Of a stretch of 64,000 bases of DNA, positions 24,972 to 42,000 are shown piece after piece. Both the position numbers and the translations under genes were made by a program. Numbering within the stretch: the first letter of the stretch is position 1; each line of letters starts with the position of its first letter. This DNA comes from the human T2T-CHM13v2.0 reference genome, Homo sapiens: assembly GCF_009914755.1 (NCBI RefSeq), contig NC_060939.1; one strand, written 5' to 3'. The notes beneath the pieces are model-generated. The model saw nothing but the letters and a program-made list of their open reading frames with translations. It was not told the origin of the DNA and made no database searches.

Positions 24972-25084
24972 TAAGGCACAGACCTTACTCTCTATTGGCA
25001 TTAAGTCTGATCGTGGATGAAATTAAAACACTTGAAACCATTTATATATAATGACGCAAGCCCCTCCAAAACTGTCAGGTCATA

Positions 25085-25490
25085 GAATGGATGTATCAGT
25101 TTGCTTTACCATTCACCTATTGGGGAGTATTTGGTTGTTTCCAGTTTGGGGCTATTACAAATAAATCTGCCATGAACAATCATGTATGAGTTTTTGTGCA
25201 GACATCAGTTTTATTTTCTGGTACAAATGCCCAGAAGCAATTGCTAGGTCATATATTGAGGTGTATGTTTAATTAAAGAAGCTGCCAAACTATTTTCTAG
25301 AGTGTCTGTATCATTTTATATTCCCACCAGCGATGTATGAGTTAGTTTTGTCTGCATCCTCGCCATTATTTGATACTATCACTATGCTTGATTTGAGCTG
25401 TTCTAATAGATCTGTAGTGATATCTTACTGTGGTTTTAATTTGCATTTCCCCAGTGGTTAGTGTTGAAGATCTATTCCTGTGCTTTAAGT
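25085..25490 (-). mobile_element. Old L1 3' fragment
   Basis: GGTTGTTTCCAGTTTGGGGCTATTACAAATAA...TTTAATTTGCATTTCCC, typical reverse L1M. Confidence 0.7.
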
Positions 25491-25539
25491 CAACTCATTT
25501 TTAAAACCTAAATAAATGTATTTAAAAAGGAAACTTTTG

Positions 25540-25805
25540 CTTTAGGAGGCCAAGGCAGGTGAATTGCTCAAGCCGAGGAGTTCACGACCAGCCTGAGCAA
25601 CATGGTGAAGCTCCATCTCTACAAAAAATACAAAAACATCCAGGCAAGGTAGCGTGCACCTATGGTTTCAGCTACTTGGGAAGTGAGGCAGGAGGATTGC
25701 TTGAGCCTGGGAGGTCGAGGCTGCCATGAGCCATGATTGCAGGATTGCACCATTATACTACAGCCTGGGTGTCACGGCAAAACCCTGCCTGAAATAAATG
25801 AATAA
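25540..25805 (+). mobile_element. 5'-truncated AluJ
   Basis: Degenerate Alu dimer. Confidence 0.8.
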
Positions 25806-25820
25806 AAGGAAACTTGTGGT

Positions 25821-25985
25821 TAGTGGTTCTCAGAGTGTGGTCCCTGAGCCAGCAGCATCAGCATCCCCATCAGCTGAGAACTTGTTAGAAATGCAGATTC
25901 TCAGGCGCCACCCCAGACCTCCTGAATCAGAACCTCTGAGGCGTGGGTTCAGCGACCTGTGGTTTAACAAGCCCTCCCGGTGAGA
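25821..25985. mobile_element. MER5A hAT DNA transposon fragment
   Basis: AGTGGTTCTCAGAGTGTGGTCCC...GAACTTGTTAGAAATGCAGATTCTCAGG...TTTAACAAGCCCTCC. Confidence 0.75.
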
Positions 25986-27080
25986 ATCAGTCTCATTCAC
26001 TACAGATAGAAGGAAATGGTAAAAATCAATTCATCCGCATATCGCCTAAAATCCTCCTGTGGGCCCCAGGTTGCCACAGCACACTTTTGGGCAGGAGCCC
26101 CACTCACAGAGGCCGTGACAAGAATGCTCCTGCCCCTGGGGTTGTGCAGTGACAGCTCACACAGCTCCACGTGGCGGTTCTGAGTTTGGGAAGCGCTGAT
26201 GTAGTCCTACTGCAGCCCTTCCTGCCCTTCACCGGACTGAGGAAATCCAGGCTCTGAGGAGGGCGAGACTTGCCCAAGGTCACCCAGCAACATGGTCAGT
26301 CTCCTTTCCCAGGGCCCTCACAATGCGTGGCCTGTTTAAAGCCTGCCTCTATTCACTGCTGAGTGAAAAATCCAGCTCCAAAACAGAATATGGGGAAGGA
26401 TACTATCTTGTGCAGCTTATGTTTATAGCTGCAGATACATGGGAAAACAAGTCAGAAAATACTGTTGAAGCAGTTATTTGGGGAGAGAAGGGGTTTGCTG
26501 GTTTTTTGTGTTTTTAACTTTTCTATATCTCATAATTTTTATCACAATAATGTTTAGTTACATAATCAAAATGTATTAAATATAATATTAAAAATCGACA
26601 TGAAGCCTGATCTAGCCACGGTCTATTGTTGGCAGAGTCAGGAAGCCTTCCAGATAGAGCAGGCCCTGCACCTGCCCCAGGTCACACCCTTACCCCATGG
26701 TGGCCTCCACATCCATACCCATGAGCATCTCCTGTGGGTGAGGCCCTCCCCTGCATCCAGCCCTGGGCACCCCCAGCCCAGAGGGCACCTCATGGTCTGA
26801 GAGTCCACCTGTCTGTCTCTAAAGAGAGGAAAGCTCCTTGGGACATGTGTTCTGCTTGACGCATCACCCCTGGCCTGGTACAGAAAGGTGGACAGTGGGT
26901 ATTTGGTGAATAAATGAATGAATGATTAGAACAAGTCCCCAAAATGGTGATTTCCTGAGGCCCTTCTCCAGCTTGCCTAGGTGGAACCAGTTCCACTTTT
27001 CACAGGAAAGCCAGGTGTGAGGAGTGGGGCAGGTATGTGTGAATGGCCAGGTTCTCGAAGGCTGGATGGATACAGGGCTT

Positions 27081-28825
27081 ATGGCAGGTCTGGGGTTGGC
27101 AGTGCTGCTGTGGGAGCCTGTAGGAGGGCTCGTCTTTGGAATCCCCCAGGGTATCCTGGTGCCCTCAGCTGCTGCATGGTGTGAGAAGGCCTGGCTTGTG
27201 GGGATGCACAGGGTCTTGTTTGGATTGGCCACCTGGTCCAGCCCAGGGAGCTATGCTTCCTGCCCCTCAGGGAAAACTCACTTTTGATGTGTAACAACAG
27301 CTGCAGGCAAGGGGAGGTAGAGGTGTGCTGGGCCTCGGCCTTAGAAGCCAGAAGCCAGTTCATGCCCCTACGTGGGAAAAGGATGATATACGTGGGAAAG
27401 GGATGGGGCCTTGGCTAGCTCTAGGGTCCTGGGTTATGGTCAGAACCATATGGACTTATATGAGTCACTTATGGACTCAGTGACTTGGGCTGACCCAGCC
27501 CCTCCCTGAACCTCATCAGTGAAACCAGGACGGGGCCAGGGCTCTCGACGCCTCCCAGCTCCAACCTCTGGCTTTCTCCCAGGAGGGCAGGAGATCAGAC
27601 AGAGGTAACCTGGGCTCCCCTGTTTACGTCAACCTCCTTGTGAAGCCTCCCTCTTTCTGCCTGTGAGGTGGGTGGGGCCAGAAGGAGAGGCATTCACCTG
27701 TGGGTCTCTGACTTCTCTGCCCAGGTGTGCCTGGAGAGCCTGGTCTATACCCGGTGCTTTGCTACACCCCACAGCCTGGCCAAAGCCTCCCTGCCTCCAG
27801 AGCAGCCCTGGCCCTGGGAAGAAGCTGGTCTCTGCATTGAATGACAGGTAGAAAATTAAAGTGGGGATGATAGCTCTGGAAAGGAGTCAAGGAGGAGTTG
27901 CCTTCCCAAGGACACAGAGGGTTTTTCCAGAATGGAACTTGACTGGTGTGGGCAAACATCAGGAGGTGGGAAGGGTGGCTCCCTCTGCGGGAGCTGGGGC
28001 AACTTGCCTGGGCCAAATGGTGGTAGGTTGTGGGTAGGGCAGGCAGAGCTGGGGTGCTCAGAGCCTGGGTTCTCTGTCCTTGCAGAGGACTGGAATTCAA
28101 AACAAGTGTCCCCTGCCCTGTGGCTGGGGGACATCCTCTACTTCCAAGCCCAGACATACACCAGCTGCCACAAGCCCCTGAGGCTCTTTAGAGGACCAAT
28201 GGACAGCCACACCCACAATGGGCCAGCCTGCTGGGCCACCTGCACCCTGGTCAGAGCCCATGACTGAGGGGACTCTCTGGGGACAATGGGGGCAGTCCCA
28301 TGCTGCCCTCTTACAGGTGGATCAGTCCCTGGGATCTGGTGTTGGGCTAGGGTGGGCTGAGGCTGTTCTCTGCCAGGGTGCCTGGTGGACAGCAGGTAGA
28401 GCAACTTGTCCTTGGCTTTCCTGGACCCCAGGACACAGCTGAACACTGCACTTTACCCTGGATGTCTTCAGATTCTCAGGGGACCCTGGGAAGGAAGAGG
28501 GGGATGCCCCAGCAGGAGGCCAGGGCCCTGGGCTATGCTTGCTCCCCCCAGTCCCTCCAGCAGGCACCTCCTCTCCACATCAACATCACCTGATTCCTGA
28601 AGGCCTGGGCTACTGACAAGAGCCCCAAAACCCTCACCAAGGCCTGTTCTTGTATCAGAGCAACTAGTACGAGTTCGGAGCTGAAGGGGGCGGAGAGAAA
28701 ACTCAGGGCTCTGTAAGAGTTCTCAGCTCCCTACTGTGGTGGGCCCCGTAGAAGTCCCCCCAGAAATCTGCAGCTGCTGTAAGTCACTGGGAGGAAGCTA
28801 CAGCAGACATGTGTTTCCCAGCCTG
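27081..28825 (+). pseudogene. Unprocessed zona pellucida ZP3-family pseudogene; exons about 27081-27306, 27605-27667, 27725-27847, 28086-28263, 28377-28493, 28579-28670, 28739-28825
   Basis: Collinear peptides match ZP3 exons 1-7: WCEKAWLVGMHRVLFG-IGHLVQPREL; KKLV..SLH*MTE; EDWNSKQVSPALWLGDILYFQAQTYTSCHKPLRLF-EDQWTATPT; CLVDSR*SNLSLAFLDPR..LHFTLDVFRFSGD; INIT*FLKAWATDKSPKTLTKACS; PVEVPPEICSCCK. Many stops, indels and broken splice sites. Confidence 0.88.
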
Positions 28826-29414
28826 GTAGATGCAGAGGGGTGTCCGGGCCCCGAGTGGGAGGCCCAAACACAGCCTTGGATATGGCAGTGCAGGATTCTA
28901 GACAGCTCTGGGGCCCTGGGCAAGTCATTTAGCCTCTCAGAACCCCATTCCTGGTCATCATGGGGCTCTTGTGTGGATGTAAAGAACCCCCCTGGCCACT
29001 TATGTCCCATCAGTGGAAGCCTAGCATGGGTGGAGACCCCTGAGACTGAACTCAGTGGTGGGATCCAGCCTGCCCAGCTCTCCTACATAGAGCCCAGAGC
29101 CAGGAGGATGGGCTTCCTGGAGAAGCAGGCACTCCTGTGGGCTGGAGAGCATGAGCAGGGGTCCCCTTGGGGAGGTGGAAGAGGCTGCGGTCAGTGAAGG
29201 CCATAATGAGGCAGAGCTTGGGCAAAAAAGGCATGATGATCAGGGGATCTGAAACCCAACAGAGACTGGACTGAGGACACTGTGGCCACCTCCTCCAGGT
29301 GTCGCTCAGGAGGTGGAAGCTGAGCTAGGGCTGGGCCCTTGTCCTGAGTAACGCCTCACCAGTCTTGGAAGCTATACCCAAGGTGGCTTCATGTAAGGGT
29401 GCATCTGCGCACTC

Positions 29415-29570
29415 TTTTTGAGATGGGGTCTTCCTCTGTCATTCAGGCTGCAATTCAGTGGCACAATCATAGCTCACTGCAGCCTCAAACTCCTGGGCTC
29501 AAGTGATCCTCCCACCTCAGCCTCACAAAGTATTATAATTATAGGCCTGAGCTATGGAGCCTGGTTTAAA
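29415..29570 (-). mobile_element. Alu monomer (FLAM-like)
   Basis: Single reverse Alu arm. Confidence 0.75.
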
Positions 29571-30713
29571 ATCTTAATAAATATCTCCTCCTGGTCTGCT
29601 TCCCTGGCTGACACACATGCTGGCATCTTGCGCCTAGACAGACATGTCTCTGGACTTGGTTCCATTTGTTCTGTCGGGCTCCTCTCTCTCAATGACCGCA
29701 CATTACAGTATGTGGCTATTCTTACACATTTCTGTATAGAACTGAGGGTTAGTATATTAACGTCAAAGTTCTACTGGTTTTTCGAGGCTGGGTGGAAAGT
29801 TTGGGTTAATTTAGGAGTGGGCATCTTGACAATATAGGCTTTTCTTCCAGGAACGGTGATTCTGGGACGCAGGTTTTGCACATTCTGGTTTATTGCTTGA
29901 CTCGCTGCCACAGAGGGATGTCACTGCTCCACACGCCATGCCCAAGAGATGTCCCACCTTATCTTTCTAAATCAAGCTGAATGTTTTCAGCTGACAGGAT
30001 ATCACGAGTGCTGCGGGGACTCACTCCCCTCAACCCGAGATGAAGTGAGGCGGAGACTATGGAGCAGATCCGTGCTGAGTGCATTTGCCCTTCCTGACCT
30101 GCACTGCTGCTGGCTGGGGCTGTGTCTGAGCTGTCAGAGGGCATTGATTTGGGGATGGGGTGGGGGGCAGTGCTGGAGAGATGCCCCTCACCTTCCTCAG
30201 CTCCTCCTGTCCAGCCGACACTTGGCCACCAAGGCCCCTGACTTCCAGGCCCCAGTCACCACTAACAGGGTGCTGCATGGGAACAAAGTGTAGCCCCAGA
30301 ACCTGGAGTTCAGGTCACTCCTCCTTCCAGTCGAAGCCTCTGCCCCTCCCAGGTGATTCCAGCCTCGTTCCTCCATGGGCCAAATATCCTAAACAAAGGC
30401 CTGGACAGGGGGTCTTTATCTGACTGCCCAGAAAACACACACAGAAAGGCTCTGCATGCCCTCTGTGGCCTGCCAGGGGTAAGAGCCTGCCCGTCAAAAT
30501 GCACAGTCCTGGTTCTTGCAGGGAGTTGAGGAGCAGAAGAAGAAACAAAGGTCCATCTCATTCTTTCAGCAGGAACCTAAACTTGGGAAAGCCAGACGCA
30601 GTACATTTCTTAATCCTGATACTTTTATAACTGGTTATAGCTGGGTCACATGCACAACTGTTTTCCAACATCTTTCAACAGGCCACATAACATCCTGTAA
30701 CTTCTTTTTTTAA

Positions 30714-31163
<450 letters not shown>

Positions 31164-31243
31164 TAGACTGCCATTGGCAAATGCCAGTTGATTATCCACC
31201 CACATGTATGTTAATGGATTTCCCATGTTTTATTTGTCTAGAC

Positions 31244-31451
31244 CAGGCTTTCTCCACAGCAGCACTGTTGATGTTTAGGGCTGGACAGTTCTCTGTTCTG
31301 GAGCTGTTTGCGCCTCGCAGGATGTTTAGCAGCATCCCCAGCCTCCGCCTGCCACATGCCAGCAGCACTCCTCAGTGTGACAGCCAAAGTGATTTCAGAT
31401 ACTGTCAAATATCCCCAGGGCGGCAAAATCACCTCCAGTTGAGAACTGCTG
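31244..31451. mobile_element. MER20 DNA transposon
   Basis: GCAGGATGTTTAGCAGCATCCCC...GGCAAAATCACCTCCAGTTGAGAACTGCTG. Confidence 0.75.
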
Positions 31452-31584
31452 ACCTAAAACCCTCTGGAACAATGTTAGATCATGGTAACGATAGCGCATA
31501 CTGCTCCTGACCTTAATGGGAATACCTCTAGCATCAAAGTATAGTAGTACCTGTATACTACTGTCTGGGCTGTTATTAGTACAC

Positions 31585-32807
<1,223 letters not shown>

Positions 32808-33311
32808 TTAACATATATACATATTCTCCAGTATATTCATAACATATTCTCTAGTATATTTCCCTATATTTGTGGTTTTCAAAGCATAGTCTCAAATTGG
32901 AAGTATCAGCGTCACCTGGGAACATAGACATGCAATGCTCAGGCCCCACCTCAGTCCTATTGAGTTAGAAACTCTGGTGTGGGGCCCAGCAGCCCGTTTC
33001 ACAAGCCCTGCAGGGGATTATGATGCACTCTAATGTATGAGAACCACGGCTCTAAATAGTCAAATCATCTTTAATTGTAAAACAAGTATCTGTGAAATAA
33101 TGCTCCAGTATGACATTAAAATGCTCCAGCACGCCACCCACTTTATTTCTGAATTTAAATACTTTGTCTGTCTGATGTTAAATTTGCTGTTTTTTTCAAA
33201 TACTCTTAAGACAGTTTTTCATCGGTTCTTAATTTTCTCTTTTTAAATAAAAAATGGTTTTCCAAATCTATCCATTTTTCTCTTCTTTAACCTATTGATA
33301 GGATGAAATAA

Positions 33312-33935
<624 letters not shown>

Positions 33936-34208
33936 ATGTTCTTAAAATTTTTCTTTGACATGGTATAGGATAGTCTAGTAACTTAACATACTGTTGTTTT
34001 CAACAGGCTAGTGCTTATGATTTGTAAAAGAACTCTTCAGAAATGAGTTCAATTTTACCATGAATTGGGACATTTTCCATTTCTTTCTATTCCATAGAGC
34101 AGTTTACTTGTCATGAGCTCTGTCTTTTGAAAACCTGAAAGCCTGCAATAAAACCAGCTGCACCTGGTGCATGGGATAGGCATGGAATTGAGGAGAGAGC
34201 TCAAACTA

Positions 34209-34501
34209 CGGTCAGCCCTCTGTATCCTCGGGTTCTGGATCCTTGGATTTGACCAACTGTGCATCAAAAATATTTGGAAAAAGTAAAATAAAAAAACAAA
34301 TTTAAAAATACTTCATACAGCTATTTACAAAGCATTTACGTTGTATTAAGTATTATAGTAATCTAGAGGTGATTTAAAGTCTACGGAAGGATGTGCATAG
34401 GTTATATGCAAATACTATGCCATATTATATCAGAGCATCTGTGAATTTTGGTATCTCTGGGGTCCTGGAACCAATATCCTGAGGTTTCTAAGGGACAACT
34501 G
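34209..34501. mobile_element. MER2 (Tigger-family) element
   Basis: TA flanks; inverted ends CGGTCAGCCCTC / AAGGGACAACTG; internal GGATGTGCATAGGTTATATGCAAATACTA. Confidence 0.75.
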
Positions 34502-35119
34502 TATTCAATTTCTTCTCTGGTTATTAGTCTATTCTCTAATGTATTTTTGTTGTTGTTTTGTCTTTTTGTTTTTGCCTCTTCAAGTCAATGTCGGAAACTT
34601 AGTTGTTTTAGACAACCCATTAGCTCAGAGCTACCAGTAAGCAGACTACCACTGCAATCTAAGCAACGGATTTTTTCCCCCATCAGACTGGCAAAAAATA
34701 AGCATCTATTGATGTTGAAATTGTAGGGAGTTTTCCTGAGCATGTTAATTATGACAGCCCTTTTTGCTAGGCACCTACACAATTCATCAAAATGAAATAA
34801 AACACCCATGCACTTGAAGAAGTTATCTGGTTATTTCCTTATCTGGGTGCTGGTTATGTGAGGTCTACAGTTAATGAACACTTATTAAGCTTTATATTTC
34901 TAATAGGTACAATTTTCTGCATGTGTAGTAGATTTCAATAGTTTTTAAAATGTCTTTTGCCGCAGCCCGCAGCTGTGTATAATGCTATTCGCTTAACAGT
35001 GGAAAACATGACAATGACCTGAATCCCCCTGGCTCCCGGGATCCTACCCCCTTAAGTTAAACAAATGAAATAACTTCCACTGTCTTTCCTAATGCCTTAA
35101 TTCGGTCCTCAGTTAAACT

Positions 35120-35352
35120 GGCGGTGGGCGCTGCTTTTTTTCCAGGGAAGGATTCTGGAAGACATAGGAGGAGACGCCAGCATTTCGCCCTCCAGCACCC
35201 CCTGCGGGCTGCGGTCCGCTTCCGGCCTCACTCGAGCAGGCCCCGCCCTCCCAGAGGCCGTTTGTCCAAGTCACGTGATCGTCGAATCTGTTGACCTGGC
35301 GCCACCGGAAAAAGAAATTCCCGGGCCCTGGCTTCTTGGCCTGATGGTGAGG
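35120..35352 (+). promoter_or_regulatory. Duplicated housekeeping-type CpG promoter with an ATG-only first exon (COMMD4-like)
   Basis: ETS CTTCCGG at 35219, GC box at 35240, GTCACGTGA at 35270, CCGGAA at 35305, then GGCTTCTTGGCCTGATG|GTGAGG at 35344-35352. Resembles my recollection of the COMMD4 5' UTR; no exon 2 found downstream. Confidence 0.6.
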
Positions 35353-35584
35353 CACCAGAGGTGAAGCGAGGCATGGGCTGCTGGAGCGGGAATGAGGGGG
35401 CGACAGTGGCTCCGGAAACGGGGGGAGGGTGTCTTCACTGGCCTCTCCGCAAACACAGTGTGTGCGGGTGTGAGGGCTGCAGGTCTGGTAGAGAAGAGTC
35501 CACCGCCATCCCGCTCCTGAGACGGGGGCAGGAGTGGGGGGCAGGAGTGGGGGGCGGGTAAGACAGAGCAGGCCGGCCGGCTTG

Positions 35585-35845: not shown

Positions 35846-37525
35846 AGTGGAAGCATCAGTATGCATGATTGAAGTCATGCTTTCCATCTATTTTTTTCCA
35901 CCTTCCCTTTTTTCTGTCTAAAACATTGTATCTTAAGCTTTTGCCTATGTTATCAAGTACTCATAAGCATTATTTGAATGGTTGTATCATAATCCATTAT
36001 CTGGACTCATTGTCATTTATCCATCTGCAGTTGCTGGAGATACTGCTCTTTCTGCCACACTCAGTCACCCTTCTGACCTTGCACTGTGTCCAGTTACCTA
36101 CTAATACCCATACTGGTCATTTAGGACTTAAGAATAGTTATCATAGTTTTTAACATTCCAAAAAGAATGTGTCTTCCTAAAAATAGAATGGCTTGGTGGT
36201 TATACTTTTAAAGCAAAATAGACAAAGCCATGTTGAAATTAATGTTTTATTTTCTTCTTGTATCTATTTTCACTTCTCTTGTCATTTTGATGGATAAAGT
36301 TTCATTTGGAAGGATTTTTATTTCAAAACAGAAATAGCATATGACATGAGAAGGGGAACTCTGAAAGGTTCAACTTCCTAGTTTACTAAGTTTGTCACAA
36401 AAGCTACTGATAGTCAATCATGATTGGCCTGTATTGAAAGTGAGTTAACATTATGTACAACTTAAGCACTATACTTTCTATCCGATACAGAAAAATAGGT
36501 GGTGTGTTTGGAAAAGTGTTGGGCTAGGAGTCAGGAAGCTTGATTGTTAGTCCCAACCCTGCTTCTTGAGCTGAGCACCCCTAGGCAATAATTCAGCAGC
36601 TATTTCTTAAATACCTAATGAATTTCAGGCTTTGTAGTTGGGCTGGGAATATAGACATAGATACTGCATTCATGATTCTCCAAGCCTCCCTTCCTCACCC
36701 CGGCTCACAGTGAGCTTTCTTATGCATTGTGTAAATTTGTCTCCTAACAGGCCCCAACTCTGTCTCCAACCTCCTTCCCAGGGCAGTTGTGAGGATCAGA
36801 TGAGGGAGAATATGTGTGAAAGCAAATTGTAAATTATTTTAAAATGCAATAAAAATATGATCCATGGAAAATTATTTAAAGATCCTTATTAAAATTATTA
36901 AAGATCCTTAGAATTTTAAATAAACAGTACATTAGGCCGGGCATTGTGGCTTAGGAGAGCGCTGGGTCAAATCAGTCCCCTCCAGCTACGCATTGCCTGG
37001 AGCTGCTCTCCAAGGACCCCTCAGCCACAGAAGGCGCTGGTCCTCCTACAGTGCTGCCCCACCCCCACCACCACAGCCTCCTGGGGGTGCAGTCAGGGGT
37101 GCCCTCCTTCAGGCTCTGCCCCTGCACCCACTCCTACACAACTACTCTCCCGGCCGGCAGCCCCAGAGACCAGATTGGTTTGGGCCTCTGCCTCCGCAGG
37201 CCCGAACCACCATCTCTTCTGCTCCCCAGAAAGCCAGCTCCCAGCACACAGGCAGCGTTCCCTCTTCATTCCTCAACACAGAGGGCCCCTCACAACCCTC
37301 TCAGCAGATGGTAGAGCTCCCCACGCATCCTCTTAAAGAGGCTTCACCGTTGATGGCCACAAGCCCCACCATGACCTCCTCCCAGGGAGTGAATTTTCTT
37401 ACATGTCTCCCACCAGAGCAGGGACAAAATAAAACATAAAAGCAGCAGCTGTTAAATTATCAGTAACATTTCCTACTAGGATCAACTCACGGAGTGGGCA
37501 GTGTATTCCATTAGGTGGATCAGTG

Positions 37526-37861
37526 CAGGGGTTAGCAAGCGTTTTCTGTAAAGGGCCCGATGGGAACTCTTTAAGGCTCTGCAGGCCACTGGGTCTCTGT
37601 CACCACCTACTCAAACCCTCCCCTGTAGCAAGAAAGCAGCCCTAGCAACATGTCAACAGATAAGCGTGGCCACATTCCCAGAAACCTTTCTTTATGGACA
37701 TGGAAGTTTGCATCTCACGTAATTCTCATGTGTCACAAGATACGACTCTACTTTCCATGTTTTCAACCATTTAAACATGTAAAAGCCATTCTTAGCGCGT
37801 GGGCCACACAAAAGCAGGCAGCAAGAAATTTGGCCTTTACACCAACAGCAGCTGACCCCTG
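37526..37861. mobile_element. MER58B hAT element
   Basis: CAGGGGTTAGCAAGCGTTTTCTGTAAAGGGCC...GCTGACCCCTG terminal inverted repeats. Confidence 0.75.
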
Positions 37862-38945
37862 GATGGAGCATTAGAGCTTGGGTGTGTGTCCCACTCCAGG
37901 GCTTCCAGGAGAGGGGATGCAGGCCGATGCCACCTCCACCCCTGTCGCTCTAGGGGAGAGGGCAGAGCTGGTGCTGTATGAAGTTTGGCTGCAGATCCTG
38001 GGCCAGCCCTACACCAAGGCCTTGGAGGACAAAACCAGCCTTGAGTTCTGGGCACTTCAGGGGCAACCGACAAGATGGGTGAAGTGGCGGGATGAAGTGG
38101 GGGGGCGGGGAAGAAGCCTCGGGAAGATGGGGGATGACTGGACAAGACTTTGGTAGAGCTGTGACCCTCTTCATCCTCTCCTGACCCCCCAGCTGACCCT
38201 CGTCCTCAGATCTCTGCAGAACTTTGACCAGTGGTGGTGGAGGAATTCCGGTGGGTCCAGGGTGGCCCTGGGTGACCCAGGGCTCAGACCTGGGTTCTGG
38301 GGTTGAAGGCAGGAGGCTGGAAGAGATGACCTCCCCTAGTCCCCCAAGGCTGCCCAGCCCCCTGAAGTGGGATGATCCTCCCACCAGGCTGGACCCACTG
38401 ACCGTCAGAGTGGGTGCCACCTTCTTCAGGGCGGCATCAGCCCAGGCTCTCGTGTGGGTCTGCACACCCTGGGGGAGGCAGAGGGCCTCTTGGTAGACAC
38501 GGTCATCTCAGACCTCGGTCAGTACCTCCTTCCCTCTGCAGGCCCCCTCCCTCTGTCCATCTGCCTCCTCCCTTGGGCTTGCTGCCTCTACATGCCCTGA
38601 TCTGAAACCTGCCTCCCCTCCTCATGGAGCCCTCCAAGATGCTCCTAGCCCCAGCTCTCTGGTCCCGCAGCAACTTCTGGTGCCAGATTCTGCCTTCTCA
38701 GAAGTCTGGGAGGCAGGGCCCCGCCTGGCCATAGCCTTCTTGGTCTGCTCTAGGCACTGCTAGCCTTGAAGCCTCCAGCCTGCTGGATGCCTCCATCCCC
38801 GGCTATGCTGTGGCTCTCCTCATTCTAGGCCTCCTGCTCGTCACATTCACCCTTGTCCTGGTGAGTGTCTGGCTGGGCCCAGGCTCCTTCCTGAGGGGCA
38901 GGCTGAGCCTTTGATGCCTTGAGCCTTGAGCCAAGCTGAGGAGTG

Positions 38946-39046
38946 AGCAGGCCCCTTTACACCCCTGATTCCCCCACCCAAGCCCAGCATCTCCTCATCC
39001 TCCAGCTGGGGCTGCAGGGTTTGGGGCCAGGGGGCTGGGCCTGATC
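38946..39046 (-). ncRNA. MIR4313: Annotated microRNA hairpin; mature AGCCCCCUGGCCCCAAACCC at 39036-39017
   Basis: The reverse complement matches the miR-4313 precursor as I recall it. Confidence 0.65.
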
Positions 39047-42000
39047 CCAGTGTCCCCACCCTTCTTGTCAAGGTGCTAAAGTGGAGGGCCTCCCATGGGG
39101 TGTTCAGCCTGGGTGTGTAGAAGCACACAGTGTGGTACAGAGGACCCTCTCCAGACAGGTAAGTGGAGGGCGGTTCTCCCTGACCCCACCCCAATTGTTT
39201 GTTCTGGGTGGGGTCCACCGAGCCCCCTGCCAAGGCCTTCTGCAAACACTCCCCAGGGGCTGTTGTGGGCAGCACCTGGGTGGTGCAGTTGGTGTGCCAG
39301 AAAAGCTCCCCAGTACTGTGGGCAGTGGCCCAGGCAGTCAAGCAGACTCCCTCAAGCAGGCCCCACCTACCCCTCGCCTGTTCCCAGCTGCCTCCCACCA
39401 ACCCTAGAAATGATGCTGGGAGCTGACAGAAACTGAACTTAGGAGCACAGGAGGCCAGGAGACCTGGGACAGAGAACAGGAGGTATGGGGAGGGAATCTT
39501 CCTTCCCCCACTTCCCACTGCATGAGGGCCAGACAGTGGCACCTCCAGGTCCTGGAAGGACACGTGTGGACCCAACTCAGTTGGCCCTTTGTCTTATGGC
39601 CTTTCTTCTCCCTCCCCCGGGGCCAGGTGGATGTGGGAGGAGACGAACCACCATCCTGGGTGCACTCAGACTCATTCCCCACTCCTGGCCTTCACTCCCT
39701 TTCCTCTACACACAGGTGACCCCTCATGCTGCTGCTCCCTCTGCTGAAACCCAAACTGCAAACCTCTCCTCTCCCTGCCTTCACCTTGCCCCACGGCTTC
39801 CACAGACAGTGCCTCAACCCCGAGGAATGAATCCGAAGTTCCAACACCACTGACTTTCCCAGGAACTCAGAGCCAGAGAGGGCCAAGGACCAGCTCGAGG
39901 ACACACAGCCAGGGCTTCTTCCCTCCGAAACCCCCAAGGACTGGACTTGCAGGGCTGGGACAGAGGTGGGGTGGGGGAAAGCAATGCCTTGTCAACCCAC
40001 GTGGGGAGCCCCACTCCCATCCCCAAGGTGCATAAAGTTGAGGAACACCCCTGCTCCCACGTCCATGCTCATTCAGGGCCCTGCTCCAAGTGCTTGGCAC
40101 TCACACCAGCCTCCTGCCCTCCACAGGTATTGGTCTCGTTTACAGATGGGGAAATGGTGGCCAAGAGCCTCCCCCAGCACATATAGCTAGACCACACAGA
40201 GGACTTAGGCACAGCTGGGGGGTCCGCAGTCTCTGCTGCCTCACCTGCCACCAAAGTGTGGTCCTGCTGCCAGGTGGCAGGAAGGGGACAGAAGCCCGCC
40301 CCAAAGAGGGCTGGGGCAGGGGCACCCTTACGCCTGCCTGGTCTGGCCCAGTAGGGCTGGAGAGACTGTCAGTCCTAAGAGAAACACTGGCCTTTTGGGA
40401 GTATGGAAAAGTCAGGAAGCAATCCAAAGTTGGTATTTAAAATATTGATTTCTAGATATTTAGATGGTCATCTGGTGTGAGGAGCTGGGAGGGCCCCAGG
40501 GTAGAGTCCACAAGAGGAGGAAGATTGAAAAGGGGTCAGAGTGGAAATGGGAGCTGCTGAGGGCAAGGCCCAACCCCCTCCTTGACTCCCCAAAGCCAGC
40601 CACAGAGCCAGTCAGCCTCAGGCCAGAGGGTGTGAGCAACGGGGACCCTGGCTGCTCTACAGTGGATCAGAGCCACTGGGTGTGGGGAGTCTTCCAGGGC
40701 AGGTGTGGGGCCGCCGGGGCAAGGCAAGCTCCCAGGGCAGAGACTGAGGCCACCCCCTGCAGCCCCACTGCAGGGGGGAACACCGGGATAGGCAAGGGTC
40801 TTAACCCAGAAAGCCCCAGCAGCTCCCGTGCCCATCAGGACACCATTGAGGCTTGGCGGTGGTGGAACCCAGGAATGGTCTTTGAACCCATGACCTGGAA
40901 GGGGGAGCCAAGGATAGTCCTGGCCTGAAAGCTCTCTACCTGCAGGCAGTGTGGAGGCCCAGCGAGGGGACCCCAGGAGCCCAGACCATGAGCTTACGTG
41001 GCCAAAGACAGCAGCCAGCACCAAGACATCAAAGAGGGCGGGTAGAAAGATCATCACATAGGGGTTGACTGCGGCCGGCACCAGGTTCCTCTGTACTTCT
41101 GGAACACACAGGCCTCTCCTTCCTATCCCTGAAGCGCCCATGCCCCCACCCCGGCACCCCGAAAACCAGCCTAACATATGCATTTGTCCTGGGTCAGCCC
41201 CACTGTCCAAGCAACTGCAATTTCTGACTAGAGAGCCAGGGCAGGGCAGGGTGTAGGAGGGGTCCCTGGAAGATGCCCCCAGAATGCCCTGATGCCTAAA
41301 ACGTTCCCCGTTGGGCCTTCTCAGGGAGGGAGGGTTAAGACAGCCTTGTTCTCTCCAGCTACCTCCATCACCACTGGAGCCCTTACAGGCGTCAGGGGAG
41401 AGAATTGGCTCAATGGAGCCAGGAACAGCATGGACACAGCCCTGGGGCTGAGGCTAAGTGGGCTCTGGGAGACCGTCACTCTCTCTTCAAGCTTTGGTCT
41501 CCTGGCCCTCTACAAGCCAGGCTGTTTCAGGCTTTGCGTTAGGCCTTGCTCAGAGACAGAGTTGAAACACAGCTGGTGGACACAGTGGGCTTTAGGGAGG
41601 GGGCACGTACCTGGGGGTGGGGGCTGGGTAACAGGGAACGGAGGCCCTGGGGCTAGCGTGGCCTGTCTGGTGGTGGTGCAATGGGACCTGCACCACCTGA
41701 GGACAGAGGGTCCACCTGGAAGACTGGACCAGCCAGATGGCCACCAAGCTGGATGGCCACCGTCAGAGCCTGCAGGACAGCAGAGGGGGCTGGGAAGGGA
41801 CAGAGGACAGCTGAGGGGCAGGGAACATGGGTTCCTCCATACAGACACATGAGTCTTCCCTAAGTGGGTCTTCCCCGTGAGGGCGAGGGGGCATTCAAGA
41901 CACACCTCCAGCCCACCTCAAACCATCTCAGGAGGCCACCACCAACTCACACAGGCCAGTTGCATTGTCACAGTGACCCCAGAACAGCACAGCCCTGTCC

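What the first reader, a model, noticed from the sequence alone, without database searches (positions are those of the whole stretch)
27081..28825. Fossil of an additional ZP3-type egg-coat gene in apparently intergenic DNA
Seen: seven ordered segments on + translate to a signal-peptide-like start (MAGLGLAVLLW), ZP-N and ZP-C motifs, and the ZP3-specific Cys cluster (PVE..EICSCC). Exon 28086-28263 is 178 nt and exon 28579-28670 is 92 nt, the sizes I recall for ZP3 exons 4 and 6, with matching phases. Two conserved Cys codons are mutated (TGG, TGA) and several splice sites are dead (GCAAGG, CTGAGG, CAC acceptor). Known: functional human ZP3 is on chromosome 7, and non-eutherian vertebrates have extra ZP3 paralogues. 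Inference: retained introns and deep divergence point to a lost ancestral paralogue, not a recent copy of ZP3. It could be the orthologue of the chicken ZP3 that I recall lying on GGA10, which is syntenic with human 15q.
Basis: partly seen in the sequence, partly recalled or inferred. Interest (0 to 1): 0.92.

Follow-up and report, generated by a model that had tools for sequence, protein, structure and literature searches.

The report
Ancient ZP3-family egg-coat pseudogene, six copies
This stretch of human chromosome 15 holds the decayed remains of a second ZP3-type egg-coat gene that placental mammals lost long ago, later copied six times along 15q by segmental duplication.

Summary
The fossil is real. 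Spliced human ZP3 (rebuilt from chr7 of the same genome) searched by tblastn against all 64 kb gives its four best HSPs at 28076-28780 (+), colinear with ZP3 exons 4-7 (E 1e-6 and 2e-4); every other HSP has E>2. The joined exon 4-7 reading matches human ZP3 at E 2e-21 (38% identity over 147 aa). Frameshift-tolerant alignment also recovers exon 1 (ZP-N part, about 27162-27301) and exon 2 (27725-27847). Exons 3 and 8 were not found.

It is not a chr7 ZP3/POMZP3 copy: there is no DNA match to chr7. The ML tree places it with the monotreme and marsupial "ZP3-like" paralogue (SH-aLRT 98), but sister to ZP3 proper is not rejected (p 0.30-0.46). An origin within Eutheria is disfavoured (p 0.04-0.08).

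Lesions shared by all six copies predate the duplications. The ATG, the CAC acceptor and two AG "acceptors" are private to this copy.

Chicken ZP3 and ZP3L1 lie in the chromosome-10 block that also holds COMMD4, NEIL1, CSPG4, SNX33, SNUPN and UBE2Q2, the genes flanking the human copies. I found no published description of the human remnant.

The parts
27081..27308 (+). Exon 1 remnant. Contains the ATG at 27081 (this copy only), the ZP-N block of about 27162-27265 read in two frames, and a 3' end followed by a GC donor at 27309.
   Evidence: In one search all 13 ZP3 queries put their best frameshift-tolerant path here (ending 27253-27301). Five of 13 beat all 107 null chunks, 2 had 1/107, 3 had 3-4/107 and 3 had 10-18/107. 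Plain searches missed it. The ATG is absent from the other five copies, and the GC donor is shared by all six.
27725..27847 (+). Exon 2 remnant, 123 nt against 119 nt in ZP3. AG acceptor and GT donor are intact in all six copies. Two internal frameshifts.
   Evidence: In one search, 11 of 13 queries end at 27809. The four monotreme/marsupial ZP3-like queries score 45-50 against a null maximum of 38-41 (0/107). Human ZP3 scores only 28 (28/107). Blocks are shown and splice sites.
28086..28263 (+). Exon 4 remnant, 178 nt as in true ZP3. The Cys position reads ATG at 28199-28201. The donor is CT at 28264.
   Evidence: tblastn E 1.1e-6. PDB hit to chicken ZP3, E 0.0022. HMM i-E 4e-7. The other five copies carry a shared +1 nt insertion, and the dead donor is shared by all six.
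28377..28493 (+). Exon 5 remnant, 117 nt against 118 nt. Frameshift near 28441-28443, shared by all six copies. TAG at 28397-28399 in copies A and E only. Donor decayed.
   Evidence: tblastn HSP 28443-28484. HMM hits in two frames, 28376-28444 and 28440-28490. Six-copy alignment.
28579..28670 (+). Exon 6 remnant, 92 nt as in true ZP3. TGA replaces a conserved Cys at 28591-28593 in all six copies. The acceptor is CAC in this copy only. The donor is not GT in any copy.
   Evidence: tblastn HSP 28579-28689. HMM i-E 5e-5. Six-copy alignment.
28727..28825 (+). Exon 7 remnant (first part), carrying the ZP3-type Cys cluster PVE..ICSCC at 28745-28780.
   Evidence: tblastn HSP 28745-28780, 8/12 identical. 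28 blastx HSPs. The six-copy consensus is closer to ZP3 (PVEG...) and keeps one more Cys, TGC where the window has TAC.
25080..35584 (.). The roughly 10.5-kb chr15 duplicon that carries the fossil. Six copies on chr15, 87-91% identity over the 2.3-kb fossil stretch and 90-92% over the matched flanks.
   Evidence: Own-genome DNA searches. Copies lie at C15 70.45, 71.97, 73.20, 73.62 (this window), 75.81 and 76.61 Mb.
29299..29361 (+). Possible start of exon 8. This is a lead only and is not statistically supported.
   Evidence: In one search, 8 of 13 queries end their best path at 29339-29361, but 14-81 of 105 null chunks score as high for those eight (4-99 of 105 across all 13).

Best explanation
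This is an unprocessed, long-dead pseudogene of a ZP3-family (ZPC-type) egg-coat gene. It is a paralogue of the functional ZP3 on chr7 and was inactivated in the placental lineage. Decayed remains of exons 1, 2, 4, 5, 6 and 7 lie in order on the + strand over about 1.75 kb. The spacers are short (56-416 nt), as in the compact roughly 2.8-kb chicken ZP3 gene. Its closest living relatives by score and by ML tree are the "ZP3-like" genes of monotremes and marsupials, so it is most likely the placental relic of that lost paralogue (the ZP3-1a/1b type of the reviews; which of the two cannot be told here). After it had died, a roughly 10.5-kb block holding it was copied to six places on 15q as part of the chr15 segmental duplications. 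It has no coding function now. Shown: the ZP3 homology, the exon structure, the lesions, the six copies, and equal decay of exon and non-exon columns. Inferred: which subfamily it belongs to, when it died, and which copy sits at the original site.
For: Homology:
- tblastn top four HSPs, colinear.
- Family HMM hits only in the fossil.
- Joined exon 4-7 peptide against human ZP3, E 2e-21; against P0014, E 3e-28.
- 140, 56, 34 and 28 blastx HSPs pile on exons 4, 5, 6 and 7.
- Exons 1 and 2 recovered by frameshift-tolerant alignment.

Structure: exon 4 is 178 nt and exon 6 is 92 nt with matching phases.

Not a chr7 copy: no chr7 DNA match.

Dead before duplication:
- The TGA at the exon 6 Cys, the CT donor of exon 4, the non-GT donor of exon 6 and the exon 5 frameshift are shared by all six copies.
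- Exon and non-exon columns diverged alike among copies: 0.0718 (347/4836) against 0.0783 (1370/17492).
- The six-copy consensus scores higher against ZP3 than the window copy does (27.6 against 20.0 bits on exon 4; 92 against 82 bits against human ZP3).

Affinity:
- For the consensus, monotreme/marsupial ZP3-like proteins take ranks 1-4 and 6 of 303.
- The fossil sits in a 7-row clade with them, SH-aLRT 98, using the consensus, the extended consensus and the window-only peptide.
- Exon 2 scores best with that clade.

Context: placental loss of two ZP3 subfamilies is stated in PMC8005149.
Against: - AU tests do not reject placing the fossil beside the ZP3-proper clade (p 0.295; p 0.458 with exons 1-2 added) or beside a long lepidosaur/alligator ZP3-like group (p 0.306).
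- FastTree placed it differently in two runs. Its branch is very long (1.9-2.5 changes per column).
- Only two of the three marsupial ZP3 classes that the reviews describe were in my sample.
- Exons 3 and 8 were not found.
- Exons 1-2 escaped every standard search. They rest on a home-made aligner judged against 107 null chunks.
- Within-Eutheria nesting is only marginally rejected (p 0.082 and 0.042).
Confidence: 0.88

Rival explanations
1. It is a recent (primate-era) duplicate of the chr7 ZP3 or POMZP3 gene that decayed quickly.
For: POMZP3 shows that ZP3 pieces have been duplicated in primates (recalled, not tested). The fossil lies in duplication-rich DNA. The AU test against a clade with Eutheria alone gave p 0.082 in one run.
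Against: No chr7 match to the 2.3-kb stretch. Only 38-40% protein identity to human ZP3, which ranks 164th-166th of about 300. Spacers of 56-416 nt compared with kilobase-sized ZP3 introns. The six chr15 copies differ by only 6-10%, yet all are equally far from ZP3. AU p 0.042 with more data.
Confidence: 0.02
2. It is the relic of a different lost subfamily, the "ZP3.2" of Feng et al. 2018, for which pseudogene traces were reported in panda, cat, opossum and horse. On this reading it is not the relic of the monotreme/marsupial ZP3-like paralogue. The two published naming schemes may also overlap.
For: Feng et al. report ZP3.2 pseudogene traces in placentals (PMC6262864, passages read). The AU test does not reject a clade of the fossil with the long lepidosaur/alligator ZP3-like group (p 0.306), and FastTree joined them. 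Opossum is said to carry a ZP3.2 pseudogene in one paper and a ZP3-1a pseudogene in the other, so the names may refer to one gene (my inference).
Against: ML trees and pairwise ranks favour the monotreme/marsupial clade. I could not identify which of my proteins are Feng's ZP3.2. Their Table S3 and Fig. S7 are in a PDF supplement that I could not open.
Confidence: 0.2
3. It is sister to ZP3 proper. On this reading it is the parent copy left at the old locus when the therian ZP3 (now at 7q11.23) arose by duplication.
For: This placement is only 0.56-4.98 lnL worse than the ML tree (p-AU 0.458 and 0.295). PMC8005149 states that one ZP3 gene duplicated in the common ancestor of marsupials and placentals.
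Against: ML support of 98 for the other placement. Exon 2 and the pairwise ranks are closer to the ZP3-like clade.
Confidence: 0.2
4. The similarity is due to chance or to a repeat element.
For: None, beyond the fact that some single exons are weak alone (the exon 7 ORF piece had no PDB hit).
Against: Four colinear significant hits and nothing comparable elsewhere in 128 kb of translated sequence. Joined E 2e-21. Exon sizes and phases match. The hub table lists no masked repeat of 100 bases or more within 27081-28825 among those it names.
Confidence: 0.01

Closest known systems
Human ZP3 (chr7, 7q11.23; the functional egg-coat gene)
   Same: Same family and the same exon plan where testable. 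Exons 4 and 6 are 178 and 92 nt with the same phases. The ZP-C motifs and the C-x-C-C cluster are present.
   Different: Only 38-40% identical over exons 4-7. On a different chromosome. Compact spacers. Stop codons, frameshifts and dead splice sites. No detectable exon 3 or exon 8.
Monotreme and marsupial "ZP3-like" paralogues (Tachyglossus P0155; Dromiciops P0189; Trichosurus P0185; Petaurus P0202; Notamacropus P0200), probably the ZP3-1a or ZP3-1b of PMC8005149
   Same: Best pairwise scores (42-46% identity to the six-copy consensus). The ML clade with them has SH-aLRT 98. Best exon 2 scores.
   Different: Those are intact predicted proteins. The human sequence is a wreck on a very long branch, and AU tests leave two other deep placements open. 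Their chromosomal neighbours were not available to me.
Chicken ZP3/ZPC and ZP3L1 on chromosome 10
   Same: They lie in the block holding COMMD4, NEIL1, CSPG4, SNX33, SNUPN and UBE2Q2, the neighbours of the human copies (PMC10976558; PMC10030024; hub table). The chicken gene is compact at about 2.8 kb, like the fossil. Chicken ZPC gives the best PDB hit and strong exon 1 scores.
   Different: Classical chicken ZPC ranks only 171st-173rd by pairwise score. Nesting inside the bird ZPC clade is rejected (p 0.011). Clade-level orthology is unresolved (p 0.053 against 0.011). The synteny is at about 1-Mb resolution and comes from a gene list, not a map.
Known ZP-family pseudogenes (ZPAX in human and other primates, ZP1 in dog and cow, Zp4 in mouse; ZP3.2 traces in panda, cat, opossum, horse)
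   Same: The same kind of event: progressive loss of egg-coat genes in mammals, leaving unprocessed relics (PMC8005149, PMC3434135, PMC6262864).
   Different: The passages I read do not name a human ZP3-family relic. This one has also been multiplied six-fold by segmental duplication after its death.

Membership tests
ZP3/ZPC subfamily of zona pellucida module proteins | Significant sequence similarity to ZP3 proteins, with ZP3 as the best match | tested here: met
   In every search the best or only hits are ZP3. The joined peptide matches human ZP3 at E 2e-21.
ZP3/ZPC subfamily of zona pellucida module proteins | ZP-C cysteine pattern including the ZP3-type C-x-C-C cluster | tested here: met
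   Of the eight Cys positions in exons 4-7 of human ZP3, six are kept in the six-copy consensus and five in the window copy. Two are lost in all copies (ATG at 28199, TGA at 28591). This is my count from the peptides printed.
ZP3/ZPC subfamily of zona pellucida module proteins | The eight-exon ZP3 gene plan with conserved exon sizes and phases | tested here: met
   Exon 4 is 178 nt and exon 6 is 92 nt in both genes, with the same phases. Exon 2 is 123 against 119 nt and exon 5 is 117 against 118 nt. Exons 3 and 8 were not located.
ZP3/ZPC subfamily of zona pellucida module proteins | ZP-N domain upstream of ZP-C | tested here: inconclusive
   Standard searches found nothing. Frameshift-tolerant alignment finds exon 1 and exon 2 blocks at consistent places, above all 107 nulls for 5 of 13 queries (exon 1) and 6 of 13 (exon 2). 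Exon 3 is absent.
ZP3/ZPC subfamily of zona pellucida module proteins | Signal peptide, furin-type cleavage site, external hydrophobic patch and C-terminal transmembrane segment | tested here: not met
   The in-frame ATG with a hydrophobic start exists only in the window copy. No furin site or TM exon was found. Exon 8 search: 4-99 of 105 nulls score as high. This is expected for a wreck; it bears on completeness, not on ancestry.
Unprocessed (unitary-type) pseudogene | Disabling lesions, retained intron positions, and no near-identical functional parent in the genome | tested here: met
   Stops, frameshifts and dead splice sites. Spacers at ZP3 intron positions. The only genome-wide relative outside chr15 is ZP3, at 47% identity on exon 4. 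No excess conservation of exons among copies.
Chr15q segmental duplication (low-copy repeat) module | Several copies on one chromosome at about 90% identity, extending beyond the feature | tested here: met
   Six copies, 87-91% identity over the fossil. The block spans roughly window 25080-35584.
Monotreme/marsupial ZP3-like paralogue (ZP3-1a/1b type) | Monophyly with those genes to the exclusion of ZP3 proper | tested here: inconclusive
   ML clade with SH-aLRT 98 in three builds, but AU p 0.295 and 0.458 for the alternative beside ZP3 proper.
Positional orthologue of chicken ZP3 (GGA10) | Same conserved gene neighbourhood | tested here: inconclusive
   A gene list for one chicken chromosome-10 interval holds ZP3 and ZP3L1 with COMMD4, NEIL1, CSPG4, SNX33, SNUPN and UBE2Q2. 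The human copies lie among these genes (hub table). Fine gene order in chicken, and the marsupial and monotreme loci, could not be checked.

The most novel reading that the evidence does not exclude
The chr15 relic marks the ancestral amniote ZP3 locus, in the COMMD4-NEIL1 ... CSPG4-UBE2Q2 block. On this reading, the chicken ZP3 used as the structural model of the sperm-binding egg-coat protein is the positional orthologue of the gene that placentals lost. Human ZP3 at 7q11.23 would then descend from a later, relocated duplicate. "ZP3" of birds and of placentals would be paralogues, not 1:1 orthologues. The human genome would keep six dated snapshots of the dead original.
Probability: 0.35. 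Interest if true: 0.6.

Novelty: new member of a known kind. Interest (0 to 1): 0.5.

Why it matters
Egg-coat genes were lost stepwise in mammals, and the relics are the direct record of when and where. A human relic of a lost ZP3 paralogue gives a fixed genomic address for that gene in placentals. This makes three questions testable by simple genome alignment:
- Which ZP3 of marsupials, monotremes and birds is orthologous to which.
- Whether the loss was a single early-placental event. The shared TGA and dead donors can be looked for in other orders.
- How the 7q11.23 gene arose.

It also matters practically. Six unannotated ZP3-like stretches in 15q24 duplicons can attract cross-mapping reads or be mistaken for novel exons, and one overlaps a RefSeq-listed enhancer.

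Tried and rejected
- Plain searches for the N-terminal half all failed. These were PDB searches of the exon 1 and "exon 3" ORF pieces, Smith-Waterman of human exons 1-3 against the 1.1 kb upstream (null at or above target in 27/110, 96/110 and 46/110), blastx with 150 ZP3-family proteins, the family HMM and a clade-specific HMM.
- A low-penalty intron-jumping chain gave many 2-6-aa noise blocks. It was used only as a pointer.
- I first read 27725-27847 as exon 3. The tracebacks show that it is exon 2.
- The idea that exon 3 is fused to exon 4 without an intron was not supported. Shuffled controls reached the observed extension in 27-633 of 1000 trials.
- The exon 8 search was not significant.
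- The search for homologous proteins with the fossil exon 4 peptide returned only three near-identical 111-aa ORFs from ENA contigs.
- The ESM Atlas call gave only phylum-level taxa.
- Two scripts timed out: a brute-force splice search and IQ-TREE with bootstraps. One script call returned no answer and was rerun in a leaner form.
- FastTree placements were unstable. I relied on IQ-TREE and AU tests instead.
- PMC5922311 held nothing on ZP3 synteny.
Full report
WHAT IS THERE

To test them I rebuilt the real human ZP3 from the same genome.

- A genome-wide six-frame search with the fossil's exon 4 peptide found six chr15 places. The next best was C7:77721876-77721983 (47% identity, E 0.004). All other places had E>1.
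- I fetched 30 kb around that chr7 place. It holds all eight ZP3 coding exons.
- Their boundaries give sizes of 312, 119, 104, 178, 118, 92, 137 and 215 nt. The sum is 1275 nt, or 424 codons plus stop.
The phases also agree with the fossil's 28086-28263 and 28579-28670.

SIGNIFICANCE

- tblastn of spliced ZP3 against the whole 64-kb window, both strands: the four best HSPs are 28076-28189 (exon 4, E 1.1e-6, 45% identity), 28443-28484 (exon 5), 28579-28689 (exon 6) and 28745-28780 (exon 7). The last three are linked at E 2.3e-4. All are on the + strand and colinear. Every other HSP has E>2.
- The exon 4 ORF piece alone has chicken ZP3 (3nk3) as its best PDB match, E 0.0022. The exon 7 piece alone found nothing.
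- The exhaustive HMMER job with true ZP3 exon 4 returned 308 proteins at E of 0.001 or better. blastx of the region against the 150 listed proteins piles 140, 56, 34 and 28 HSPs on exons 4, 5, 6 and 7.
- An HMM built from 66 full-length members hits the six-frame window only four times, all in the fossil. Exon 5 is hit in two frames, which confirms the frameshift. The next hit has i-E 5.8.
- Joined with X at stops, exons 4-7 match human ZP3 at E 2e-21 (38% identity over 147 aa).

THE N-TERMINAL HALF

Standard tools found nothing upstream. I then wrote a frameshift-tolerant protein-to-DNA aligner and judged it against 107 equal-sized chunks of the same window, both strands, using 13 ZP3 proteins as queries.

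- Exon 1 (ZP-N part): all 13 queries place their best path at the same spot, ending at 27253-27301. The number of null chunks reaching the target score was 0 for five queries, 1 for two, 3-4 for three and 10-18 for three.
- Exon 2: 11 of 13 queries end at 27809, inside the AG/GT-bounded block 27725-27847. Six queries beat all nulls. The four monotreme/marsupial ZP3-like queries score 45-50 against a null maximum of 38-41.
- Exon 3: no consistent place (7-87 of 107 nulls reach the target). The idea that it is fused to exon 4 failed a shuffle test.
- Exon 8: not significant. Eight of 13 queries point to 29339-29361, which I keep as a lead only.

Six of the eight ZP3 exons therefore leave detectable remains.

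SIX COPIES

- The 2.3-kb stretch occurs six times on chr15, at 70.45, 71.97, 73.20, 73.62 (this window), 75.81 and 76.61 Mb, with 87-91% identity. It does not occur on chr7.
- Flank searches show a shared block of about 10.5 kb, roughly window 25080-35584.
- Shared by all six copies, and therefore older than the duplications: the TGA at the exon 6 Cys, the CT donor of exon 4, the non-GT donor of exon 6, the exon 5 frameshift and the GC donor of exon 1.
- Private to the window copy: the ATG at 27081, the CAC acceptor of exon 6, and the AG before exons 5 and 7. The other copies read CGG or TGG at those two sites, so the ancestor probably had a CpG there, not AG. The 178-nt length of exon 4 is also private. 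The other five copies share a 1-nt insertion that breaks the ZP3 frame, which makes the window copy the outgroup on that one character.
- The TAG in exon 5 is in copies A and E only.
- Exon and non-exon columns have diverged equally among copies: 0.0718 against 0.0783.
- The six-copy consensus matches ZP3 proteins better than any single reading I tested. This is what true but decayed homology predicts.

WHICH ZP3

Two searches with organism names gave labelled anchors.

- Against about 300 family proteins, the consensus peptide's best matches are P0014 (46% identity; its nearest named relative is echidna ZP3-like at 71%), Dromiciops, Petaurus, Tachyglossus and Trichosurus ZP3-like. These take ranks 1-4 and 6 of 303. 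Human ZP3 ranks 166th, Dromiciops ZP3 proper 170th and classical chicken ZPC 173rd.
- IQ-TREE (LG+G4, 38 rows) puts the fossil in a 7-row clade with the monotreme and marsupial ZP3-like proteins, SH-aLRT 98. It lies apart from the clade of marsupial plus placental ZP3 proper (support 100). The result is the same with exons 1-2 added and with the window-only peptide.
- AU tests are less decisive:
  - Beside ZP3 proper: p 0.295 and 0.458.
  - Beside a long lepidosaur/alligator group: p 0.306.
  - Inside the bird ZPC clade: p 0.011.
  - With Eutheria alone: p 0.082 and 0.042.
- FastTree placements moved between runs.
- My reading is that this is an old mammalian paralogue, most likely the one still alive in monotremes and marsupials, but the subfamily is not settled.

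POSITION

- The hub table puts CSPG4, SNX33, IMP3 and SNUPN before the window and UBE2Q2 after it.
- Copy F ends 1.7 kb before exons that the PDB search names as COMMD4 (8f2r_D, E 1e-32).
- Chicken ZP3 is on chromosome 10 at 3,088,060-3,090,874 of GRCg6a (PMC10030024, passage read).
- A chicken GWAS table lists ZP3 and ZP3L1 in one chromosome-10 interval with NEIL1, COMMD4, MAN2C1, SIN3A, PTPN9, SNUPN, SNX33, CSPG4, UBE2Q2 and FBXO22 (PMC10976558, passage read).
The protein trees neither confirm nor exclude clade-level orthology.
- Which human copy sits at the original site is open. The window copy is the outgroup on one indel, and copy F is the one beside COMMD4.

LITERATURE

- PMC8005149 (passages and section 2.2 read) says that mammals began with several ZP3 genes and that placentals lost two of three subfamilies.
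- PMC6262864 (passages read) reports ZP3.2 pseudogene traces in panda, cat and opossum, and segments in horse. Its Table S3 and Fig. S7 are in a PDF that I could not open, and they may list more species.
- PMC3434135 (passages) lists the known ZP pseudogenes, with none of ZP3.
- The phrases "ZP3 pseudogene", "ZPC pseudogene", "pseudogene of ZP3" and "ZP3-like pseudogene" occur in no paper of the library.
- The human unitary-pseudogene survey PMC2864566 has no occurrence of zona, ZP3 or ZPAX.
- Goudet 2008 and Moros-Nicolas 2018 were seen only in reference lists.
- The RefSeq table supplied for this window has no gene at 27081-28825.

VERDICT

This is a genuine, previously unannotated (as far as I could check) relic of a lost ZP3-family gene. 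It is an ordinary kind of thing (gene-loss pseudogene plus segmental duplication), but it is informative for egg-coat gene history.

Noticed in passing
window 28106-28667: The hub table lists a RefSeq "enhancer" functional element that covers fossil exons 4-6 almost exactly. I do not know whether this reflects residual regulatory activity, exaptation or an assay artefact.
   Followed up: no
L003 (C15:75812851-75815091, -) and L004 (C15:76606570-76608812, +): Copies C and D differ by only 0.13% (JC 0.0013) and lie in opposite orientation about 0.8 Mb apart. All other pairs differ by 6-10%. This indicates a very recent duplication or gene conversion.
   Followed up: partly
L007 (C15:73197493-73199820): Copy F matches the query in two pieces that overlap by about 80 query bases (818-897, window about 27817-27896). 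This suggests a small tandem duplication covering the 3' end of exon 2 and the following spacer. Copy F is 2328 nt against about 2250 nt for the others.
   Followed up: no
L021 (C15:73206000-73215999) and L022 (C15:73216000-73225999): COMMD4 exons start about 1.7 kb past the end of copy F's duplicon (PDB 8f2r_D, E 1e-32). Further ORFs in L022 look like the next gene. I recall NEIL1 but did not test this.
   Followed up: partly
protein P0209: A 449-aa protein deposited as [quoted passage not shown] is a typical bird/reptile-type ZP3 carrying ZP-N and Zona_pellucida Pfam domains. This is almost certainly vertebrate contamination in a bacterial assembly.
   Followed up: no
proteins P0001-P0003: Three 111-aa ORFs from ENA contigs are 97-98% identical to the fossil's exon 4 reading frame. 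They are probably human or primate DNA in environmental or other assemblies.
   Followed up: no
window 27298-27314 compared with chr7 ZP3 exon 1 end: By eye, the last bases of fossil exon 1 plus the donor (…AACAGCTGCAG|GCAAGG, all six copies) resemble the true ZP3 exon 1 end (…AACAGCATGCAG|GTAAGA) apart from a 1-nt deletion. A GC donor in a strong context is not necessarily dead. I did not test this for significance.
   Followed up: no
window 36950-42000: Beyond the duplicon, other modules match different chr15 sites at 94-95% identity (for example 73.09 Mb, and several copies near 70.46, 71.9, 73.15 and 75.79 Mb). The window is therefore a mosaic of duplicons of different ages.
   Followed up: no
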